Below are positions 2,063-36,037 of a stretch of DNA of 64,000 bases, in pieces. Location of the stretch: NCBI GenBank assembly GCA_030583745.1, contig CP129473.1, forward strand, positions 530 to 64,529, read 5' to 3'. Position numbers and translations under genes: made by a program. This stretch comes from Minisyncoccota bacterium (GTDB lineage: Bacteria > Patescibacteriota > Minisyncoccia > Phycocordibacterales > BOKC01). The notes under the pieces are model-generated. The model saw nothing but the letters and a program-made list of their open reading frames with translations, was not told the origin of the DNA and ran no database searches. The stretch's first letter is position 1, and each line of letters starts with the position of its first letter.

Positions 2063-2764
2063 GTGGGGTCTTGCTTTAATGACGGTTTAGATAACATGGA
2101 AAAAATACCCAACGAACCGGATCTAGAAAAAAAATTAATGTCTGCTGTGGAGGCGGTGTATTCTCCACGCTTGCCATATCACAATTTTGAACACGCTAGA
2201 GAAATTGAAAAAAGAGTATTGGAGATTGCTGATCGCTGTGAATCTGAAGGCGTCCCAATTAACAGGGAAGTTATCCGTCTAGCAGCTTTATTTCACGATG
2301 CGGGTTATCATTTAGACCATGTCGCGAAAGGGTGTGAGAGCAAAGAAGAGCTGTCGACTTTTATTGCCAGGGAAGAACTTGTTAAATTAAATGTTAAGCC
2401 GGAAATTATAGAAGAGGTCTTAAAGACTATTTTGGCGACCCATCGAGATGCGGAATTTACCACTAACGAACAAAAAGTATTAAGGGCAGCAGATTTAGTT
2501 TCTTTGGCTGGTGAGTTTGAGACTTTCTTGAAAAATACAGTATTACTAAAGCGCGAAATCGAGTTTTTGCGTGGGAGTGCTATCAGTTGGGAAGAATGGA
2601 AAAATTCAACTGAAAGGTTGGTTAAATTTTATCTGTCGCAAGACATCCGACTCACGAGTTTTCACGACGACGAAAACGGCAGGTCTGTATTTCATATCGC
2701 GACAATTCAGAATTTGCAGAGGTTTTTGGGGATGCCAGAATCTGAATTAAAAAAATTGGAGTGA
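2063..2764 (+). CDS. HD-domain phosphohydrolase
   Basis: H..HD motif (FEHAREIE ... LFHDAGY) typical of the HD superfamily. Confidence 0.65.
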   Translation: MGSCFNDGLDNMEKIPNEPDLEKKLMSAVEAVYSPRLPYHNFEHAREIEKRVLEIADRCESEGVPINREVIRLAALFHDAGYHLDHVAKGCESKEELSTFIAREELVKLNVKPEIIEEVLKTILATHRDAEFTTNEQKVLRAADLVSLAGEFETFLKNTVLLKREIEFLRGSAISWEEWKNSTERLVKFYLSQDIRLTSFHDDENGRSVFHIATIQNLQRFLGMPESELKKLE

Positions 2765-2796
2765 AAAAAGATTTCTGATATTATATTTTAGAAATC

Positions 2797-3768
2797 ATGT
2801 CTATCGCCCCAATAATTTTATTCCTAGTCTCTTGTGGATTGATAATTTTTGCCGGCAAGTGGGTTGTCTCCTCTCTTTTGGATATAGCCCGTTTCCTGGG
2901 TTGGAAGGAATTTGTTGTTGCTTTTTTTGCTTTTTCTTTGGGATCTGTTGCTCCGGAATTTTTCATAGGCATCTCTTCGGCCTTACACGGCATCCCGGAG
3001 TTGTCGCTTGGCAATATTATTGGCCAGAATATCTTGCTTTTGACCGTGACAGTTGCCGTCTCAGCTTTAGTTTTAAGAGGGGGAATAAGAATACAAAGTC
3101 AAACAGTTAAGGTTGGTTCGACTTTTGCGGTTATTGCTGCGGTTCTTCCTTTGATTATGGTTTTAGACGGAACCTTGTCGAGAATTGACGGATTGATTTT
3201 AATTTTTACTTTTGCTGGTTTTACCGTCTGGTTGTTCTCAAAAAAAGAAAGATTTTCCAAGATTTATCAAGATGAGATTAGTGAGTCTTCAAGTGTTGGT
3301 CTTAACACATTCTTTAAAAAAATTTTTATTTTTATCGGAAGTCTTGCCTTACTTGTGGTGTCAGCGGAAGGAATCATTCGATCTTCTCTGGGTTTTGCCG
3401 AAGGTCTCGGATTCTCGGTGCCCTTTGTCGGACTTTTGATTGTTGCAATTGGAACAGGCCTACCCGAAACCTACATATCTTTTAATTTGGCTAAAAGAGG
3501 TCAATCGTGGATGATTTTGGGCGGACTTATGGGGGCGGTGGCTTTGTCCTCGACCATGGTTCTTGGTCTGATTTCTGTAATACAACCCATTGTTATTCCG
3601 GCTTCAGAATTGGCACATCTGACTTTAGCCAGGATATTCCTGCTTTTGAGTGCTCTGTTCTTCCTGTTTTTCGTCAAAACCGGCAGACAGATTTCCAAGA
3701 AAGAAGCAATCTTTCTTCTGCTCTTTTACGCAGTTTTTGTGTTTTCGCTTCTGTATTTACCGGGTTAA
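2797..3768 (+). CDS. Ca2+/cation antiporter (CaCA, YrbG-like) membrane protein
   Basis: Two alpha-repeat signatures (GNIIGQNILLLTV and GTGLPETYISF) in a polytopic membrane protein. Confidence 0.75.
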   Translation: MSIAPIILFLVSCGLIIFAGKWVVSSLLDIARFLGWKEFVVAFFAFSLGSVAPEFFIGISSALHGIPELSLGNIIGQNILLLTVTVAVSALVLRGGIRIQSQTVKVGSTFAVIAAVLPLIMVLDGTLSRIDGLILIFTFAGFTVWLFSKKERFSKIYQDEISESSSVGLNTFFKKIFIFIGSLALLVVSAEGIIRSSLGFAEGLGFSVPFVGLLIVAIGTGLPETYISFNLAKRGQSWMILGGLMGAVALSSTMVLGLISVIQPIVIPASELAHLTLARIFLLLSALFFLFFVKTGRQISKKEAIFLLLFYAVFVFSLLYLPG

Positions 3769-31280: not shown

Positions 31281-31946
31281 ATGAAGCCTCGTACAGTTCG
31301 GGTCCTCTGCAGGGGTATTTCGCCCATTCTCATGGACCAGATGACAGAGGAGACCCTCGACAGCCTCGCAACCAGCGTCCGGCAGAACAAACCCAAGGAC
31401 AGACCGTTTGCGGATGTCGCGGAGGAGAAAATCTACCGCGACCCTATGACAGAGCGCATCGGCATCCCCTCGGAGATGCTCTTCGCTTGTTTGGTCGCAG
31501 CGGGCCGGAAGGTCAAGAACGGCAAGAGCCAGATCTCCACAGCAACCTCCTCGACCGTTCCGGACTTTCTCGAGATCCCCGACTTTTTCTTTCCGTTTCT
31601 CGGCATCCCCGAGAACGTGGAGCCGCGATCGGAAGACGAGAGGCAGCACTGGAAGGTGGATAAGAGACGAGGGCGTCTGCCCATCAACGGAACCGCTGTC
31701 TGCCTCATCCGTCCCCGCTTCAACAACTGGGAATTCAAGGTCACAGTGATCTACGATGCCGACAAGATCGATGGTTCTACGCTGAAGGCTCTCTTTGTGA
31801 ATGCCGGCAGTGGCCAAGGTCTTGGTTCGTTCCGCCCCAACTGCAGGGGTACCTTCGGGAAGTTCGTTGTCGTTTCTTGGGAGGAGACGGCCGGCGCTGT
31901 GAAGGAGGACGAGACGGAAGAGACGGACGTTCTCGCGGCTGCATGA
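31281..31946 (+). CDS. Hypothetical 221-aa protein with a C-terminal glycine-rich loop (possibly RAMP/Cas6- or Cas7-like). Unverified.
   Basis: Strong SD (aaaggag, 6 nt before the ATG). GC-rich with good coding periodicity. Segment FVNAGSGQGLGSFRPNCRGTFGKF is reminiscent of RAMP glycine-rich loops. Terminator at 32007..32045. Overlapping antisense ORFs are treated as spurious. Confidence 0.5.
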   Translation: MKPRTVRVLCRGISPILMDQMTEETLDSLATSVRQNKPKDRPFADVAEEKIYRDPMTERIGIPSEMLFACLVAAGRKVKNGKSQISTATSSTVPDFLEIPDFFFPFLGIPENVEPRSEDERQHWKVDKRRGRLPINGTAVCLIRPRFNNWEFKVTVIYDADKIDGSTLKALFVNAGSGQGLGSFRPNCRGTFGKFVVVSWEETAGAVKEDETEETDVLAAA

Positions 31947-32006
31947 CTGTGTGAAGTCAAGTCCAGCATCCTGGACTATACTCTAGTTAAGTACGCTCGC
32001 GTGCTC

Positions 32007-32045
32007 AAACCCCGTCGCTTCACCGTGGCGGGGTTTCTTTTCTAA
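32007..32045 (+). terminator. Intrinsic terminator after the 221-aa gene
   Basis: Stem aaaccccg/cggggttt followed by tttcttttct. Confidence 0.7.
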
Positions 32046-32134
32046 ACATCCAACGGTTTATACTACAGTCAAGTAGAGTCTAGCAAGGTAGGGTTAGGTC
32101 GAGTGCAATAGAGTTCAGTAGTTCAGTATAGAGT

Positions 32135-32681
32135 GAAGTTGCTAAAAAGTAACTTTGCTAATTAGAGGAGGTTAAAATTGTAGTGACGTGTAGTTCTGTT
32201 CCGTCGTCTGCGGTGGGGTGAAGTATACGGCAGAATCTTCGAAAGGGGATTCTGTCAATTATATATCGTGTCGTCCACTACAGTGCAGTTCGGCAAAGTT
32301 AGGTACGGTGGTCAGGTGGCGATTTTCGAGAGAAAGCCGCCACCTCTTTGCTTTCGGTGCGGTGTTTTGGGGTCCAATACCATGAACTATTGTGCAACAA
32401 GAGTCTTCGAAAGGAGATTTTACTGTTTTTAACTACAGCTCCCCAGACTACTCTTAGGTAGTGTTGCCTGACGCAAGGTATAGTGCAGGGCAGAATCTTC
32501 GAAAGGAGATTCTGTCGCTTTCTTCAGTGGAGTTAAGTTACCTCCCGTCGCGTATAGTCCACTACACGTCAGAATATCTGAAAAGATATTCTGACATTTC
32601 CTTGGTCTGTAGCAACCTGCAGTAAGGTGGGCTCCAGTATAGTTTAGTTCAGGTTAGAATCACTGAAAAGTGCTTCTAACA
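32135..32681 (+). repeat. Array 1: seven non-identical hairpins about 80-97 nt apart, capped by GNRA tetraloops (6x GAAA/GAGA, one AAAA)
   Basis: Hairpins: 32135-32156, 32231-32254 (cagaatcttc GAAA ggggattctg), 32315-32344 (..GAGA..), 32399-32421, 32491-32514, 32570-32593 and 32653-32680. Stems differ but keep pairing through compensatory and G.U changes that only pair on the + strand RNA. Motifs ACUACAG and GUAUAG recur between hairpins. Confidence 0.7.
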
Positions 32682-32744
32682 CTTACGATTTAGGTGGTGT
32701 GTAGTTCACTTAAGTAGACTCCAGCAAGCTACAGTATTGTACAC

Positions 32745-32785
32745 AACCCGCTTCGTCTTAAATGGTGAAGCGGGTTTTTGTTTGA
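32745..32785 (+). terminator. Intrinsic terminator closing array 1
   Basis: Stem aacccgcttc/gaagcgggtt followed by tttgtttg. Confidence 0.75.
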
Positions 32786-32872
32786 CAAGATCCAAAAAAT
32801 ATGTATTCTTGTTACTGGAAGTTCATTGTGAACTTGCACCATCTGAAACATCTGGAATATTGGAGATCAAGA

Positions 32873-34741
32873 ATGACAACAGAAACGAGAAAAAGAGGCG
32901 CTCTGAACTTGGAACGCCTTGCGGGAAACTTCCCAAGCCGATTCTCAAGAATGAGAGTTGCGCAGGAAGAAGCACTCAAATTCGTGGCAGAAAACGGCTC
33001 AAGCATTGTCGAAGCACCAACAGGGTCGGGAAAGACTGCGATTGAGATTGCCATTCTACGCGCTGGACAAGAGGTGGGAATGGAAACTCTCTTCCTCATC
33101 GTTCCCAACAAGACGATCCTCGGACAAATCAGAGAAGAGTTTCCAGGTGATGTGAAAGTCGCATTGGGACGAAACGAGCATCCGTGTCTCTACTACGAGG
33201 AGAAGAAGACAGAGATTACAGTTGAAGGAGTCAGGCTTCTGTCAGATGATCCTGAAAGCATCAAAGCGGATGAGATTCCGTGCTCGATGCTTCTTGATTG
33301 TCCGCATCGAGTTGACCAGGAAACTGGAGAGACTCACACAAAGGGTGCCTTCCCGTGCCCTTACCTTCAGCAAAAGTACGAGGCCAAACAGGGCGGTATC
33401 GTGCTTTGCACGATGTCTTTCTATCTCTTCACACAACTTTTCAGCAGAGAGTGGGAACGGCCGAATATCTTGGTGATCGATGAAGCACATCGCATCGCCG
33501 AGGTCTTTCGAAACGCTCTGTCCTACGAAATCTCTGATCACCACATCGAGAAGGCGGTAGGAATCCTCAAGCTCATTGGAGCAGGAGAAGAATCGACAGC
33601 GCTGGAGTTGTTTCTCAAGAAGATGATTAGAATCATCAAGGGGAAATCCAGAGGGAAGCTGCCTCTCCTCGAACCAGAGGAGCTCTACACCTTGATAGAG
33701 ACGCTATCACTTATCGACACCAAGGAGTTGGGAAAGAAGGTGAGTGGCGCGGTCAAGGAAGGCAAGCTTAACGCCAAGGCAGACAGAACAACGCTTCGCA
33801 AGCTCGAGGTGCTGATTCGAGACTTGAAGCGCTACATTCGATCTTTTGAGTTCTCTATGCCGGCTTCCAACCGACATGCTCTCAACTACACCTACGCCAC
33901 CTGGCGCGAAGAAAAGCAAAAGGGTCAGAAAGTCCAGTACCAACTGGTCATCAAGGCCTACTATGTCGCCCCGCTCATCAAGAAAGTGATGGGCGATACG
34001 ACGGTCTCTTTTTCCGCCACCATTGGCGATCCGGATGTCTTTGGTTTCGAAACCGGAATCAGAGATCCGTTCGTTAGCTTGGGCGGACACTTTCCAGCCA
34101 ACAACACCAGAATCTTTATGCCCTCGGACACTCCGAATCTGGCTATGAATGCCAGGTCAAATCAGGAGCCAACCAGGGTTCTGCGTCGGATCGCCAAGGC
34201 CTGCAAGCGATTTTCCCAAAAGGGAATTCGTTCGCTGGTCGTGGTAGTTTCCAATGCAGAGCGAGACAAATTCCTAATGCTCGCGGAAGAAGAAGACGTC
34301 TATGCTATAAGCTACGGCAACGGAGTCACCGCAAGGGATGCCGCCCAACTCTTCAAGGGAGGAGAAGGTGATGTTCTCGTTGGCACTGCCTCAAACTACG
34401 CTGAAGGTGTTGATCTTCCAAAGAATCTGGCACCGGTCATCTTCGTCCTCCGACCCGGATATCCGAATCCAAAGGACCCGGGCACAATCTTTGAGGAGAA
34501 GAGATTTGGTAGTCAGCGCTGGCAGATCTGGAACTGGAGGGTGATGCTTCAGGCTCTTCAGGCTCGAGGCAGAAACCTGCGAAGCGTCAACGATATCGGC
34601 GTGACTATCTTCATCTCCCAGCAGTTTAGGCGATTTGTTTTCGCATCTCTGCCGGAGAGTCTGAAGGAGTCATATGTTCGTGACAAGACCTTCGATGAGT
34701 GTGTCAATAGTACTCTTGAACACCTGAATAGAGTCCTGTAG
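32873..34741 (+). CDS. DinG/XPD (Rad3)-family SF2 DEAH helicase with a 4-Cys (putative Fe-S) insertion
   Basis: Walker A is EAPTGSGKT and motif II is VIDEAHR. Four Cys lie between motifs I and II (HPC, IPC, DCPH, FPCPY). The C-terminal helicase motif LVGTASNYAEGVDLP is DinG-like. SD GGAG precedes the ATG at 32873. An alternative start is at 32801. Confidence 0.75.
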   Translation: MTTETRKRGALNLERLAGNFPSRFSRMRVAQEEALKFVAENGSSIVEAPTGSGKTAIEIAILRAGQEVGMETLFLIVPNKTILGQIREEFPGDVKVALGRNEHPCLYYEEKKTEITVEGVRLLSDDPESIKADEIPCSMLLDCPHRVDQETGETHTKGAFPCPYLQQKYEAKQGGIVLCTMSFYLFTQLFSREWERPNILVIDEAHRIAEVFRNALSYEISDHHIEKAVGILKLIGAGEESTALELFLKKMIRIIKGKSRGKLPLLEPEELYTLIETLSLIDTKELGKKVSGAVKEGKLNAKADRTTLRKLEVLIRDLKRYIRSFEFSMPASNRHALNYTYATWREEKQKGQKVQYQLVIKAYYVAPLIKKVMGDTTVSFSATIGDPDVFGFETGIRDPFVSLGGHFPANNTRIFMPSDTPNLAMNARSNQEPTRVLRRIAKACKRFSQKGIRSLVVVVSNAERDKFLMLAEEEDVYAISYGNGVTARDAAQLFKGGEGDVLVGTASNYAEGVDLPKNLAPVIFVLRPGYPNPKDPGTIFEEKRFGSQRWQIWNWRVMLQALQARGRNLRSVNDIGVTIFISQQFRRFVFASLPESLKESYVRDKTFDECVNSTLEHLNRVL

Positions 34742-34799
34742 CCTACAGTTTGGTGCGCCAAGTTATTCTAGCGTTTTCTAGAGTCGGGTTCACTACACA

Positions 34800-34835
34800 A
34801 GCGTTCCGAGTAAAATCGGGACGCTTTTTTGTTTG
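34800..34835 (+). terminator. Intrinsic terminator after the helicase
   Basis: Stem agcgttccg/cgggacgct with a G.U pair, followed by ttttttgtttg. Confidence 0.7.
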
Positions 34836-34946
34836 TTATTCCTTTTTTATAAAAAATATGTTATAAAAGTTTTTGGCTTGTTCTTTATAGTTACCTAAAC
34901 CATTCTTTTCTGCGGTGCACTGCCGTATCCTTTCGTGCCCTATAGA

Positions 34947-35243
34947 TCCAGATCCTCGAAAGAGGTTCTGGATAATTTCAGTTACCTCATGTTCTGTACG
35001 GTATGCTGTCGTAACCTTCTCTGAAGGTCTAAACTCCTGAAAGGGGGTTTAGACGATTTTCCAGTAAAGTTCGGCTCAATAACGTAGCACTTACTAAGAT
35101 GCAGGACAGATAAGACAGAGATGTTTTATCTTGTCATTACCAGACTGGTTAGATACAGTGAGGTTAGGTGTCGTGAAGTTGAGTTTAGTCATCTGAAGTC
35201 GTCTGGACTATACGACAGCAGAGATTGAAAAATCTTTGCTGTC
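34947..35243 (+). repeat. Array 2: four or more GNRA-capped hairpins (GAAA, GAAA, GAGA, GAAA) at about 80-110 nt spacing
   Basis: Hairpins: 34947-34972, 35027-35054, 35108-35131 and 35214-35243. The upstream (GUAUAG-like) and CUACAG motifs are the same as in array 1. Confidence 0.65.
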
Positions 35244-35319
35244 ATTGCTCCCTACCCTATACCACTCTTCACTACAGTGTATCCCGGTGTTCTCAAGTGG
35301 TTTTCAGTTAAGTACACAA

Positions 35320-35350
35320 GCTCCGCTTCGGCGGGGCTTTTCTATTGATT
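35320..35350 (+). terminator. Intrinsic terminator closing array 2 (UUCG tetraloop)
   Basis: gctccgc ttcg gcggggc followed by ttttctattgatttt. Confidence 0.7.
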
Positions 35351-35371
35351 TTCAAATAAAATTATGCGACA

Positions 35372-36037
35372 ATGGCAATTATGCTGACTTTAGAAACTAA
35401 AATTCGTAATAAAAAAGGCAATCAAACTCTTCGTAAAGAAGGGTGGATGCCGGCGGTTTTTTATGGCAAGAAAGAGCCAGCCACAGCTATTGCTGTTGAT
35501 TCTGTTGCTTTCGGCAAGGTTTTGAAAGAAGCTGGTGAGTCATCCGTCGTAATATTAGAGACCGAAAGTGGCCAGAAGCAGGCATTGATAAAAGATGTTC
35601 AATTTGACCCAGTAACTGACACACCGAGACACGCAGATTTTTATGTTTTTGAAAAAGGTCATAAGCTAGAAGTTGACGTTCCGCTTGTGTTTGAGGGCGT
35701 TTCGCCTGCTGTTAAAGAGCTTGGTGGAATTTTAGTTAAAGTTTTGCACGAACTTAAAATCAGAGCTATGCCGAAGGATTTACCGCATGAAATAAAAATT
35801 GATATTTCCACACTTAAAGATTTTGAAAGTCAGATATTAGCCAAAGACATAAAGTTGCCGGAGGGCGTTGAGCTTCTTGAAGGACCAGAGGAAGTCATAG
35901 CGCTTACAGAGGAAGCTAAAGAAGAAATTGAGGAAGAAGTTGTCGCGCCTGATTTGTCTTCGATTGAAGTTGAAAAGAAAGGCAAGAAGGAAGAGGAACC
36001 TTCTCCTGAAAGCGGTGGAACAGCAGAAGAGAAATAA
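35372..36037 (+). CDS. rplY: Ribosomal protein L25 / general stress protein Ctc, with an acidic C-terminal tail
   Basis: N-terminal L25 fold sequence (LETKIRNKKGNQTLRKEGWMPAVFYG). Confidence 0.85.
   Translation: MAIMLTLETKIRNKKGNQTLRKEGWMPAVFYGKKEPATAIAVDSVAFGKVLKEAGESSVVILETESGQKQALIKDVQFDPVTDTPRHADFYVFEKGHKLEVDVPLVFEGVSPAVKELGGILVKVLHELKIRAMPKDLPHEIKIDISTLKDFESQILAKDIKLPEGVELLEGPEEVIALTEEAKEEIEEEVVAPDLSSIEVEKKGKKEEEPSPESGGTAEEK

What the first reader, a model, noticed from the sequence alone, without database searches (positions are those of the whole stretch)
34947..35243. Array 2: the same hairpin family downstream of the helicase
The hairpins are tccagatcctc-GAAA-gaggttctgga (34947-72) and gtctaaactcct-GAAA-gggggtttagac (35027-54). 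Others are agataagaca-GAGA-tgttttatct (35108-31) and gacagcagagatt-GAAA-aatctttgctgtc (35214-43). Spacing is again about 80 nt. The same upstream tatag/tatac and cactaca(g) motifs occur (for example 34941, 35208, 35270). The array has an AT-rich promoter-like stretch at 34840-34900 and its own terminator at 35320-50. Two arrays bracketing the helicase suggest the helicase acts with these RNAs, or that the whole unit duplicated around it.
Basis: seen in the sequence. Interest (0 to 1): 0.75.

Follow-up and report, generated by a model that had tools for sequence, protein, structure and literature searches.

The report
VIPR guide-RNA array beside XPD-like helicase
The four hairpins are the structured 3' ends of a row of five probable guide RNAs belonging to a VIPR system, an RNA-guided DNA-recognition system related to CRISPR and first described in 2026 preprints, here sitting in the chromosome of a tiny Patescibacteria bacterium next to its Cas7-like Vipr protein and an XPD-like helicase.

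Summary
Four GNRA-capped hairpins lie at the stated coordinates on the + strand, far above the chance rate, and an intrinsic terminator follows them.

Every stretch between the hairpins is a run of 10-16 pentanucleotide repeats (NN-N-G/C-U, about 96% pyrimidine at the fifth position). That periodicity occurs nowhere else in the 64 kb on either strand.

The 221-aa ORF upstream of the helicase (31281-31946) is a Cas7-like RAMP. Its family profile matches the solved SUSP1 Vipr protein (E 7e-12).

Together these match a VIPR locus as described in bioRxiv 10.64898/2026.04.26.720920 and .720927: vipr, an accessory helicase, and two vrRNA arrays. Each vrRNA is a repeat tract that carries a gapped guide, followed by a structured 3' tail.

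The same three-part module recurs in about 50 of 59 Patescibacteria loci that have different neighbouring genes.

No DNA target was found and nothing is known about expression. The mechanism is therefore inferred by homology.

Verdict: a new member of a recently described kind, probably the helicase-associated type. It differs in having covarying rather than invariant tails, a relaxed YNNNG-type repeat, and a chromosomal, lineage-wide distribution.

The parts
31281..31946 (+). vipr gene: 221-aa Cas7-like RAMP with G-rich loop GLGSFRPNCRGTFGKF
   Evidence: No Pfam, PADLOC or NCBIfam hit. A profile of 35 homologues matches PDB 36pp_D 'SUSP1 Vipr protein' at E 7.2e-12 over the full length. Single-sequence tblastn hits the SUSP1/SUSP2-type phage gene at 25.7% identity, E 1e-2. 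The AF2 model has pLDDT 91.4. The best Foldseek PDB hits are Csm3/Cas7 subunits, E 6e-8. A homologue lies within about 1-3 kb of the helicase in about 55 of 59 loci.
31947..32036 (+). candidate vrRNA directly after vipr: about 10 pentamers followed by an intrinsic terminator that would serve as the tail
   Evidence: Register (11 units, 11 Y, 7 GY). Terminator at 32007-32036.
32050..32776 (+). Array 1: about 8 vrRNA units (pentamer tracts plus six GNRA hairpin tails and one TAAAAA-loop hairpin), ending in a terminator
   Evidence: Hairpins. GT autocorrelation at 5/10/15/20 nt is 35/25/23/24 against 0-11 at other distances. 99% Y and 67% GY across 104 units, a count that includes the 11 units of the post-vipr tract 31947-32006. 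Terminator at 32745-32776.
32873..34741 (+). accessory (vap-type) SF2 helicase, XPD/Rad3/DinG-like with an Fe-S cluster. The annotated start gives 622 aa; the ORF opens at 32801.
   Evidence: Pfam DEAD_2, Helicase_C_2 and ResIII. PADLOC typeIV_DinG profile at 1.8e-37 over the full length. Nearest solved structure is archaeal XPD Ta0057, E 2e-8. Walker A, DEAH and 4 Cys are conserved in 25 homologues. Promoter-like TTGACA-16-TATTCT at 32782-32809.
34742..34826 (+). candidate vrRNA directly after the helicase stop: about 11 pentamers, then ACACAAG, then an intrinsic terminator
   Evidence: 11 units, 11 Y, 7 GY. Terminator at 34799-34826.
34832..34880 (+). A+T-rich promoter region of Array 2, with extended -10 TGTTATAAA at 34859-34867
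   Evidence: 80% A+T and motif position. The motif is conserved in L001. Not detected by the two-hexamer scan. No transcript data.
34881..34973 (+). vrRNA 2.1: 12-13 pentamers (34881-34945) plus tail hairpin 34946-34973
   Evidence: 12 units, 12 Y, only 4 GY; the others are mostly CY. L001 has the identical tail but a different tract.
34974..35054 (+). vrRNA 2.2: 10 pentamers plus tail hairpin 35027-35054
   Evidence: In L001 this unit has a different hairpin, and the aligned tract carries a 5-nt indel.
35055..35131 (+). vrRNA 2.3: 10 degenerate pentamers plus tail hairpin 35108-35131 (GAGA loop)
   Evidence: 10 units, 9 Y, 4 GY. This is the weakest unit.
35132..35245 (+). vrRNA 2.4: 15-16 pentamers plus tail hairpin 35212-35245; the best-formed unit
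   Evidence: 16 units, 14 Y, 10 GY. Nearly identical in L001.
35246..35345 (+). vrRNA 2.5: 13-14 pentamers, then ACACAAG, then terminator hairpin 35318-35339 and a U-run
   Evidence: The same 'ACACAA + terminator' ending closes Array 1 and the post-helicase unit.

Best explanation
Region 34742-35371 is the downstream guide-RNA array of a chromosomal VIPR (Viral Interference Programmable Repeat) locus in a Candidatus Paceibacterota genome.

The locus reads: vipr (31281-31946), one terminator-tailed vrRNA, Array 1, an XPD-like helicase (vap), one terminator-tailed vrRNA, a promoter, then Array 2.

Array 2 would be transcribed from about 34875 to the terminator at 35339. It would yield five vrRNAs of about 80-115 nt. 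Each has a tract of 10-16 pentamers (5'-N N N G/C U-3', the 'YNNNG' class) followed by a structured 3' tail. In four units the tail is a 10-14 bp GNRA hairpin; in the last it is the terminator.

By homology with the SUSP1 and P. fulva systems, the expected mechanism is as follows. Vipr protomers polymerise one per pentamer along the tract. They flip out the conserved x-G-Y bases and present the two variable bases of each repeat. The concatenated dinucleotides read double-stranded DNA with one skipped base per repeat (NNxNNx...), forming an R-loop/triplex that blocks transcription. The helicase then most likely acts on the Vipr-bound target, either unwinding or clearing it or extending the effect, as DinG does in type IV-A CRISPR.

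Shown here: the sequence architecture, the strand specificity, the covarying hairpins, the Vipr homology and fold, and the conserved vipr-array-helicase module.

Inferred: transcription and processing, Vipr binding, the targeting rule, the identity of the targets, and the helicase's role.
For: 1. Periodicity. GT pairs at 5/10/15/20 nt number 12/19/13/15 in Array 2 and 35/25/23/24 in Array 1, against 0-11 (mostly under 8) at other distances. The opposite strand and the neighbouring genes show nothing. No other 60-nt window in the 64 kb reaches 6 in-phase GT on either strand.

2. Register. Tracts hold 10-16 units, nearly all 5 nt long. Pyrimidine is at the fifth position in 70/73 units (Array 2) and 103/104 (Array 1). 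A constant 4 nt separates the last repeat from the hairpin.

3. Family-wide logo from 280 tracts in 50+ loci: G 0.75, U 0.81 (Y 0.93), then N, N, N. Tracts run 8-20 repeats, mode 9-13. The preprint reports 9-16 YNNGG repeats and names YNNNG variants.

4. Positive control. The published SUSP1 locus shows the same gene-strand 5-nt periodicity in both intergenic regions, followed by a tail hairpin.

5. Vipr. Profile hit to PDB 36pp 'SUSP1 Vipr protein', E 7e-12, full length. The equivalents of SUSP1 R138 and R179 are invariant here (R144, R185), and W178 corresponds to a conserved aromatic (F184). The AF2 model has pLDDT 91 with Cas7/Csm3 as best folds.

6. Module conservation. vipr lies within 1-3 kb of the helicase in about 55 of 59 loci. 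Periodic tracts sit on the helicase strand in about 50 of 59 loci, with only 5 minus-strand tracts in total. In L004, where helicase identity is 60%, the neighbouring genes are different.

7. Guide-like variability.
- In duplicated blocks of L012 the tails are identical and the G-U positions are kept, while the N positions differ.
- Between the window and L001, unit 2.1 keeps its tail but has another tract, and a 5-nt indel occurs.

8. Tail structure. Across 95 units, 93.6% of cells are paired and all 12 pairs show double changes. The covariation score is 1.03 against 0.26 when shuffled, and slid controls give 35-44% pairing.

9. Hairpin as 3' tail. The repeat phase is sharp upstream of the hairpins and blurred downstream. 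Tracts that follow a stop codon end in a terminator without any upstream hairpin.

10. The preprints state that some VIPR types carry helicase accessory genes.
Against: - There are no transcript data for this organism.
- No DNA target was found.
  - None in the window.
  - None among about 1.3 Mb of related loci under any skip rule.
  - Seven IMG/VR scans gave nothing or chance matches.
  - The single metagenome scan gave one chance match.
- In Array 2 the G before the pyrimidine is present in only 38 of 73 repeats (mostly C otherwise). An optimiser-matched control on random sequence gives 46% G. The G signal in this array is therefore weak and the call rests mainly on the U/Y phase. In SUSP1, changing the second G abolished silencing (Fig. 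S12 legend).
- Similarity to the solved Vipr is remote (about 26% identity).
- The tails are not invariant as described for SUSP1.
- The hairpin set used for covariation was selected for pairing, which inflates the percentage paired.
- I could not see the preprint's figures or tables. Assignment to a numbered VIPR type is a guess.
Confidence: 0.85

Rival explanations
1. This is a VIPR locus, but a domesticated one. The vrRNAs repress the bacterium's own genes, or genes of its host or episymbiotic partner, rather than phages or other mobile elements.
For: The module sits among housekeeping genes (2-hydroxyacid dehydrogenase, PfkB, L25, RF, S2, EF-Ts), not in a prophage or defence island. It is present across many Patescibacteria lineages with helicase identity of 40-60%, which looks like vertical inheritance. 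Unit 2.4 is nearly identical between strains whose other units differ. No viral target was found.
Against: There is no self-target in the 64 kb available: the best 1-nt-skip matches are no better than under other skip rules. Unit content changes quickly between strains, as expected for defence guides. Only about 10% of the genome could be searched.
Confidence: 0.12
2. The arrays are protein-sequestering or scaffold RNAs. The periodic tracts would bind a ring or filament protein, as TRAP binds (G/U)AG repeats or CsrB binds CsrA, without guiding DNA recognition.
For: The 5-nt repeat with about 11 units per linker resembles a TRAP site (my own knowledge). Rfam gave only weak GcvB and rsmX-like sub-threshold hits. 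No targets were found.
Against: The adjacent conserved protein is a homologue of Vipr, whose repeat-bound filament is solved and guides DNA binding. The non-conserved repeat positions are hypervariable between duplicated units, which fits an information-bearing role better than a pure binding site.
Confidence: 0.04
3. It is a degenerate or atypical CRISPR array of a type IV-like system. The hairpins would be the repeats, the linkers the spacers, the helicase would play the role of DinG/Csf4, and the RAMP the role of Csf2/Cas7.
For: Hairpin elements recur at regular spacing. There is a Cas7-like RAMP. The helicase matches a PADLOC typeIV_DinG profile at 1.8e-37.
Against: The 'repeats' differ in sequence, and only the structure and 5 basal pairs are kept. 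The 'spacers' are about 50-80 nt and internally periodic. No Cas5, Cas6, Cas8/Csf1 or Cas1-Cas2 genes are present in the locus. NCBIfam Csf4 scores 19.6 bits against a cut-off of 400.
Confidence: 0.02
4. These are DNA-level or trivial elements, such as REP/MITE-like palindromes or a stack of terminators, with no dedicated RNA function.
For: Some hairpins are followed by T-rich sequence and are picked up by the terminator scan (32229, 32489 and 32568).
Against: Strict strand specificity with G-U pairs. Covariation in all 12 stem pairs. Conserved linkage to vipr and the helicase in distant genomes. None elsewhere in the window.
Confidence: 0.02

Closest known systems
VIPR systems (Vipr RAMP + vrRNA), bioRxiv 10.64898/2026.04.26.720920 and 10.64898/2026.04.26.720927; reference locus Escherichia phage SUSP1 (type II)
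   Same: A small single-RRM RAMP with a G-loop and thumb. Intergenic arrays on the gene strand flanking vipr and vap. vrRNAs of about 100 nt made of 9-16 pentamer repeats with conserved G-Y and variable N positions. A structured 3' tail after each tract. An accessory gene next to vipr. The SUSP1 locus gives the same periodicity signature with my script.
   Different: - The repeat is NGY-NN ('YNNNG'; here mostly AGU or xCU) rather than GGY-NN.
- Both residues that read the first G in SUSP1 lack a counterpart here: D177 aligns to Ser, and H17 falls in a SUSP1-specific insertion with no counterpart.
- The tails are simple GNRA hairpins whose upper 7 bp covary between units, not an invariant pseudoknotted tail.
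- The arrays are much larger in relatives, with up to about 30 units.
- The accessory gene is an XPD-like helicase rather than a DNA-binding protein.
- The setting is chromosomal and housekeeping in Patescibacteria rather than a phage.
Helicase- or nuclease-associated VIPR types (types III-V of the preprint)
   Same: The preprint says types III-V carry predicted nucleases or helicases, and that III and V are the only nuclease-bearing types. A helicase-only type (presumably IV) therefore exists. It also mentions YNNNG-type repeats.
   Different: The text available to me gives no taxon, helicase family or tail structure for that type, and the figures and tables are not held. Whether this Patescibacteria clade is included is unknown.
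Type IV-A CRISPR-Cas (Csf complex + DinG/Csf4)
   Same: A Cas7-like RNA-bound filament paired with an Fe-S SF2 5'-3' helicase of the XPD/DinG family, with no nuclease in the locus. The likely outcome is interference or repression rather than cleavage (role of DinG from my own knowledge). The PADLOC typeIV_DinG profile hits at 1.8e-37.
   Different: No CRISPR repeats, contiguous spacers, Cas6/Csf5, Csf1, Csf3 or adaptation genes. The helicase fails the NCBIfam Csf4 cut-off. Its nearest solved relative is archaeal XPD.
Type III Csm3 / type VII Cas7 backbone subunits
   Same: Best structural matches of the Vipr model (Foldseek E 6e-8 to 1e-6, TM about 0.5).
   Different: Only 10-16% identity. Single small protein, 5-nt rather than 6-nt periodicity, and no partner subunits.

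Membership tests
VIPR system | A Vipr protein: a small RAMP with an RRM core, G-rich loop and thumb, homologous to characterised Vipr | tested here: met
   Profile against PDB 36pp_D 'SUSP1 Vipr protein': E 7.2e-12, residues 2-193 aligned to 2-192. AF2 pLDDT 91.4 with a Cas7/Csm3 fold. The G-loop GLGxFRPxxxGxFG and the thumb 'RP' are conserved.
VIPR system | vrRNA tracts of tandem pentanucleotide repeats (9-16 units) with a conserved G-G-Y or related motif alternating with variable NN | tested here: met
   Strand-specific 5-nt periodicity confined to the two intergenic regions. 10-16 units per tract. Family logo G .75, Y .93, N, N, N. Caveat: in Array 2 the G is present in only 52% of repeats.
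VIPR system | A structured 3' tail after each repeat tract | tested here: met
   GNRA hairpins sit 4 nt after the last repeat. Covariation in 12 of 12 pairs over 95 units. They are predicted in the MFE fold. Unlike SUSP1, the tail sequence is not invariant.
VIPR system | Variable positions are hypervariable while the G-Y positions and the tail are kept (guide-like behaviour) | tested here: met
   Duplicated blocks in L012. Window against L001 units.
VIPR system | Compact locus: vipr plus an accessory (vap) gene flanked by long non-coding regions | tested here: met
   vipr, array, helicase, array in the window. The same module is found in about 50-55 of 59 loci.
VIPR system | vrRNAs are expressed, processed to about 100 nt and bound by Vipr | not testable with these tools
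   No transcriptome or biochemistry is available. Only promoter-like and terminator signals were found.
VIPR system | dsDNA recognition through NN dinucleotides with a 1-nt skip; natural targets in competing mobile elements | tested here: inconclusive
   No target above chance in the window, in related loci, in IMG/VR or in the single metagenome scan. The collection scans required exact 9-10-dinucleotide seeds.
CRISPR-Cas (type IV-like) | An array of near-identical direct repeats separated by unique, non-periodic spacers of about 30-40 nt | tested here: not met
   The hairpin sequences differ between units; only 5 basal pairs and the loop are conserved. The linkers are 49-80 nt and internally periodic.
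CRISPR-Cas (type IV-like) | A multi-subunit Cas effector set (Csf1/Cas8-like, Cas5/Csf3, Cas6/Csf5) and a Csf4-class DinG | tested here: not met
   Only one RAMP gene is present. No PADLOC or NCBIfam Cas hits apart from helicase profiles. Csf4 TIGR03117 scores 19.6 bits against a cut-off of 400.
XPD/Rad3/DinG Fe-S helicases (SF2) | Walker A, DEAH box, four-cysteine Fe-S domain and Helicase_C_2 | tested here: met
   Pfam DEAD_2 and Helicase_C_2. G51/G53/K54, D203/E204/H206 and C105/C143/C162 are invariant, and C137 is at least 90% conserved, across 25 homologues. Nearest solved structure is XPD Ta0057.
Known Rfam RNA families, tRNA and tmRNA | A match at or above the family gathering score | tested here: not met
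   Only two tRNAs elsewhere in the window. In 31900-35450 only sub-threshold hits: GcvB 23 bits against 42, rsmX 17 against 56.

The most novel reading that the evidence does not exclude
Patescibacteria (CPR) carry a vertically inherited chromosomal VIPR-XPD helicase module as a major RNA-guided defence or control system. Its arrays reach about 30 guides and turn over between close strains.

Two features are not described in the text I could read:
- Tails keep only shape and a 5-bp base while their upper stems covary freely.
- The first repeat base co-varies with the Vipr G-loop residue (Asp goes with G; Ser or Ala goes with A).

Fast unit turnover without Cas1-Cas2 would imply an unknown way of making new gapped guides.
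Probability: 0.3. Interest if true: 0.7.

Novelty: new member of a known kind. Interest (0 to 1): 0.5.

Why it matters
VIPR was described only in 2026, and the helicase-associated types are uncharacterised. The authors themselves say it is unclear what the accessory helicases sense.

This locus and its roughly 50 relatives supply three things:
- A compact natural example of Vipr plus an XPD-like helicase plus 15 candidate guides.
- Evidence that the module is widespread and chromosomal in CPR bacteria, a group usually reported to be poor in CRISPR-Cas (my own knowledge).
- Natural variation that bears on the code. The first repeat position is relaxed where the G-reading Asp is replaced, and the tails are recognised by shape.

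If the guides can be matched to targets, they would give a direct read-out of which phages or elements infect these uncultured bacteria.

Tried and rejected
- **Rfam and tRNA.** Rfam at gathering and permissive thresholds, and ARAGORN, gave no known RNA family in the region.
- **Annotation of the 221-aa ORF.** Pfam, PADLOC and NCBIfam returned nothing. Only a family profile against PDB sequences revealed Vipr.
- **Self-targeting.** 15 guides were tested against the 64-kb window under skips of 0-3. The 1-nt skip was no better than the other rules, and the skip-3 hits were just the guides themselves.
- **Cross-locus test of targeting rules.** 280 guides were tested against 1.3 Mb of masked loci, reading NN or NNN with skips of 0-2. 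All rules gave a mean best match of 0.73-0.76, so no rule could be supported. A first version of this script timed out.
- **IMG/VR scans.** Seven scans used 9-10-dinucleotide seeds from guides v2.4, v1.0, v2.1, v2.2, v2.5, v1.7 and v1.4. Six gave zero hits. The v2.1 seed gave 9 hits that are a hydrophobic-peptide coincidence (18 seed bases plus 0-2 of 8 further bases).
- **Metagenome scan (only one allowed).** It returned 10 copies of a single sequence. That sequence matches only 2 of 12 further bases, and the skipped base falls on codon position 2, so it is chance.
- **Fine-scale array turnover.** Contigs carrying the identical Vipr (L096, L097) are the same strain with an identical locus. 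L001, L002 and L003 have identical downstream arrays.
- **'tatag/tatac' as a conserved box.** Rejected.
- **Hairpins as 5' handles.** Rejected in favour of 3' tails.
Full report
**1. The observation**

The region 34742-35371 is the 630-nt intergenic space between a 622-aa helicase gene and rplY (L25). The window comes from a Candidatus Paceibacterota (Patescibacteria/CPR) chromosome. The 100%-identical helicase is annotated as such.

A systematic scan for GNRA-capped stems (at least 9 pairs, at most 1 mismatch, G-U allowed) recovers all four hairpins. They lie at 34946-73, 35027-54, 35108-31 and 35212-45. The scan also finds six more hairpins upstream of the helicase, all on the + strand. Only 11 weaker hits occur in the remaining ~125 kb of strand. 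Roughly 0.06 would be expected in this region by chance, against 4 observed.

The G-U pairs make the stems valid only on the + strand. The hairpins and the terminator are all present in the MFE and centroid folds of 34876-35345, with z = -4.8.

Four strong intrinsic terminators bound the non-coding blocks, at 32007-36, 32745-76, 34799-826 and 35318-39. Between the post-helicase terminator and the first hairpin lies an 80% A+T stretch. It contains an extended -10 element, TGTTATAAA, at 34859-67, which is conserved in the nearest relative.

**2.

The sequences between the hairpins are not arbitrary linkers.

- GT dinucleotides recur at 5, 10, 15 and 20 nt. Array 2 gives 12/19/13/15 pairs and Array 1 gives 35/25/23/24, against 0-11 (mostly under 8) at other distances.
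- This holds only on the + strand and only in the two intergenic regions.
- No other 60-nt window in the 64 kb reaches 6 in-phase GT on either strand.

Parsing the register gives tracts of 10-16 pentamers of the form N-N-N-(G/C)-U. There is a constant 4 nt between the last repeat and the hairpin. Pyrimidine occupies the fifth position in 70 of 73 repeats of the downstream region and 103 of 104 upstream. G precedes it in 52% and 67% respectively.

The 'cactacag' and 'tatag' motifs are pieces of this register. CACTACA is locally enriched, but it sits at no fixed distance from the hairpins.

**3. Related loci**

*Closest relative.* L001 (helicase 89% identical, same synteny) has the same layout, but its units form a mosaic:
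- Some units are nearly identical, such as unit 2.4.
- One keeps its hairpin but carries a different tract (unit 2.1).
- Others are replaced entirely.
- A 5-nt indel and an extra unit occur.

*A 60%-identical helicase.* L004 sits in a different gene neighbourhood and is flanked by 8 and 10 + strand GNRA hairpins.

*Survey of 59 Patescibacteria loci.* These were recovered with a helicase profile.
- Several have very large arrays: 24+4, 25+6 and 13+4 hairpins.
- About 50 of 59 have in-phase GT tracts on the helicase strand next to the helicase, with only 5 tracts on the other strand overall.
- The pooled logo of 280 tracts is G 0.75, U 0.81 (Y 0.93), N, N, N. Tracts hold 8-20 repeats.

*Hairpin consensus.* In L015 and L012 the consensus is (NNNGU)n-...-GGUCAG-N7-GAAA-N7'-CUGAC-AAUU. 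The five basal pairs and the loop are conserved, while the upper seven pairs vary with compensation.

*Covariation over 95 units.*
- 93.6% of cells are paired.
- Every one of the 12 pairs shows double substitutions.
- The covariation score is 1.03, against 0.26 when shuffled.
- Slid controls give 35-44% pairing.
- Caveat: the units were chosen by a pairing criterion.

**4. The protein partner**

The 221-aa ORF at 31281-31946 has no Pfam, PADLOC or NCBIfam match. Its homologues nevertheless lie within about 1-3 kb of the helicase in about 55 of the 59 loci. It carries a RAMP-like glycine loop, GLGxFRPxxxGxFGRF.

- A profile of 35 homologues matches one solved protein, PDB 36pp 'SUSP1 Vipr protein', at E 7.2e-12 end to end.
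- The single sequence finds the same gene in SUSP1-like phages at E 1e-2.
- The AlphaFold model (pLDDT 91.4) is most similar to Csm3/Cas7 backbone subunits.
- The family is large. In the 50%-clustered library, 6,603 representatives score E <= 1e-3 and 2,120 score E <= 1e-10.

**5. Comparison with what is known**

Two 2026 preprints describe VIPR systems. Their main points are:
- A small ancestral RAMP (Vipr) polymerises, one protomer per repeat, on vrRNAs made of 9-16 YNNGG pentamers followed by a structured 3' tail.
- The conserved GGY bases are flipped out.
- The variable NN dinucleotides read double-stranded DNA with one skipped base per repeat.
- The result is a triplex/R-loop that silences transcription.
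- Loci are minimal: vipr plus a vap gene, flanked by long intergenic regions that encode the vrRNAs.
- Seven types exist. Alternative repeats (NNNGG, YNNNG, NNNNG) occur.
- Some types carry predicted helicases or nucleases whose role is unknown.

The window matches this description feature by feature (see the membership table). As a positive control, the SUSP1 locus gives the same gene-strand 5-nt periodicity followed by a tail hairpin under my script.

The hairpin is the 3' tail rather than a 5' handle, for two reasons:
- The repeat phase is sharp upstream of the hairpin and blurred downstream.
- The two tracts that begin right after the vipr and helicase stop codons have no hairpin before them and end in a terminator preceded by ACACAA. 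Both arrays end the same way.

**6. Behaviour of the variable positions**

In two duplicated multi-unit blocks of L012, the tails are identical and the G-U columns are conserved, while the intervening N positions differ. The window and L001 share the tail of unit 2.1 but not its tract. This is what is expected if the N positions carry guide information.

**7. Differences from the characterised systems**

- **Relaxed repeat.** The repeat is NGY-NN, and the position equivalent to the first G is almost unconstrained (A .31, G .25). In this genome it is mostly A.
- **G-reading residues.** The two SUSP1 residues that read that G have no conserved counterpart. H17 falls in a SUSP1-specific insertion, and D177 aligns to Ser183. 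The equivalents of SUSP1 R138 and R179 are invariant here (R144, R185), and W178 corresponds to a conserved aromatic (F184).
- **Residue-base trend.** Across loci, those with Asp at that position have G at the first repeat base in 33% of repeats (up to 67% in L013). The figure is 19% with Ser and 9% with Ala. This is suggestive only, because it is not corrected for phylogeny.
- **Weak G in Array 2.** The second G is often C. This is a real weakness, since GGY>GAY abolished SUSP1 function.
- **Variable tails.** Tails vary in sequence while keeping their shape.
- **Accessory gene.** It is an Fe-S SF2 helicase of the XPD/Rad3/DinG family. It scores best against a PADLOC 'typeIV_DinG' profile at 1.8e-37 but fails the NCBIfam Csf4 cut-off.
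- **Setting.** The module is chromosomal, sits among housekeeping genes, and is spread through Patescibacteria.

**8. Targets**

I extracted 15 guides and looked for NNxNN... matches.

- **The window.** Nothing above chance was found there.
- **Related loci.** No skip rule stood out over 1.3 Mb.
- **IMG/VR.** Seven scans gave zero or coincidental hits.

The collection scans needed exact 9-10-dinucleotide seeds, and CPR phages are poorly sampled. The negative result is therefore weak. It does mean that function (defence or self-regulation) and the targeting rule remain inferred.

**9. Verdict**

The finding is real and more structured than described. It is the downstream vrRNA array, five units, of a VIPR locus. 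The hairpins are the vrRNA tails.

However, the direct RNA partner is most likely Vipr, and the arrays are not duplicates of one another.

Because VIPR, including helicase-bearing types and YNNNG repeats, is already described in the preprints, I class this as a new member of a known kind. The features that may be new are the covarying tails, the residue-base trend, the Patescibacteria-wide chromosomal distribution, and the large, fast-changing arrays. I could not check these against the preprint's figures and tables, which are not held.

Noticed in passing
L001:5579-5974 (also L002 and L003:37-429); corresponding window region 32782-32856: The 89%-identical relative carries an extra 102-131-aa ORF with no family match, inserted between the Array 1 terminator and the helicase start. 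The window retains only the first ~25 codons' worth of similar sequence. It is a strain-specific small gene inside a VIPR locus, possibly another accessory or counter-defence gene.
   Followed up: partly
L020:1567-2142 and 2753-3313; L047:655-1194 and 1349-1918; L018:18-272 and 2685-3224: Some Patescibacteria loci have two vipr paralogues near the helicase.
   Followed up: no
L036:2119-2992 (minus strand relative to the helicase): Here vipr lies on the opposite strand, and five GNRA hairpins lie downstream of it on that strand. In L004, L015 and L017 vipr is also inverted but the arrays follow the helicase strand. Arrays can therefore be co-oriented with either gene.
   Followed up: no
L011, L013, L018, L049, L061 (flanks of the helicase): These loci have 11-18 periodic GT tracts but few or no GNRA hairpins. 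The tail structure therefore differs between lineages while the repeat tract is kept.
   Followed up: no
L012:2313-2426 vs 3189-3332; L015:3671-3708 vs L017:2852-2889: There are segmental duplications of multi-unit blocks within an array, and near-identical tails shared between different genomes. This hints that new units arise by duplication followed by change at the N positions.
   Followed up: partly
window 32276, 32560, 34791, 35270 (+ strand); 32179-32185 (- strand): CACTACA occurs four times on the + strand inside the vrRNA tracts, always in repeat register but at different places in the tract. Only one further copy lies outside the arrays in the whole window. It may be a shared guide fragment or a trace of unit ancestry.
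   Followed up: partly
window 32140-32175: The first unit of Array 1 appears to end in a different hairpin from the GNRA tails of the other units: AAGTTGC-TAAAAA-GTAACTT, 7 bp. I read this by eye.
   Followed up: no
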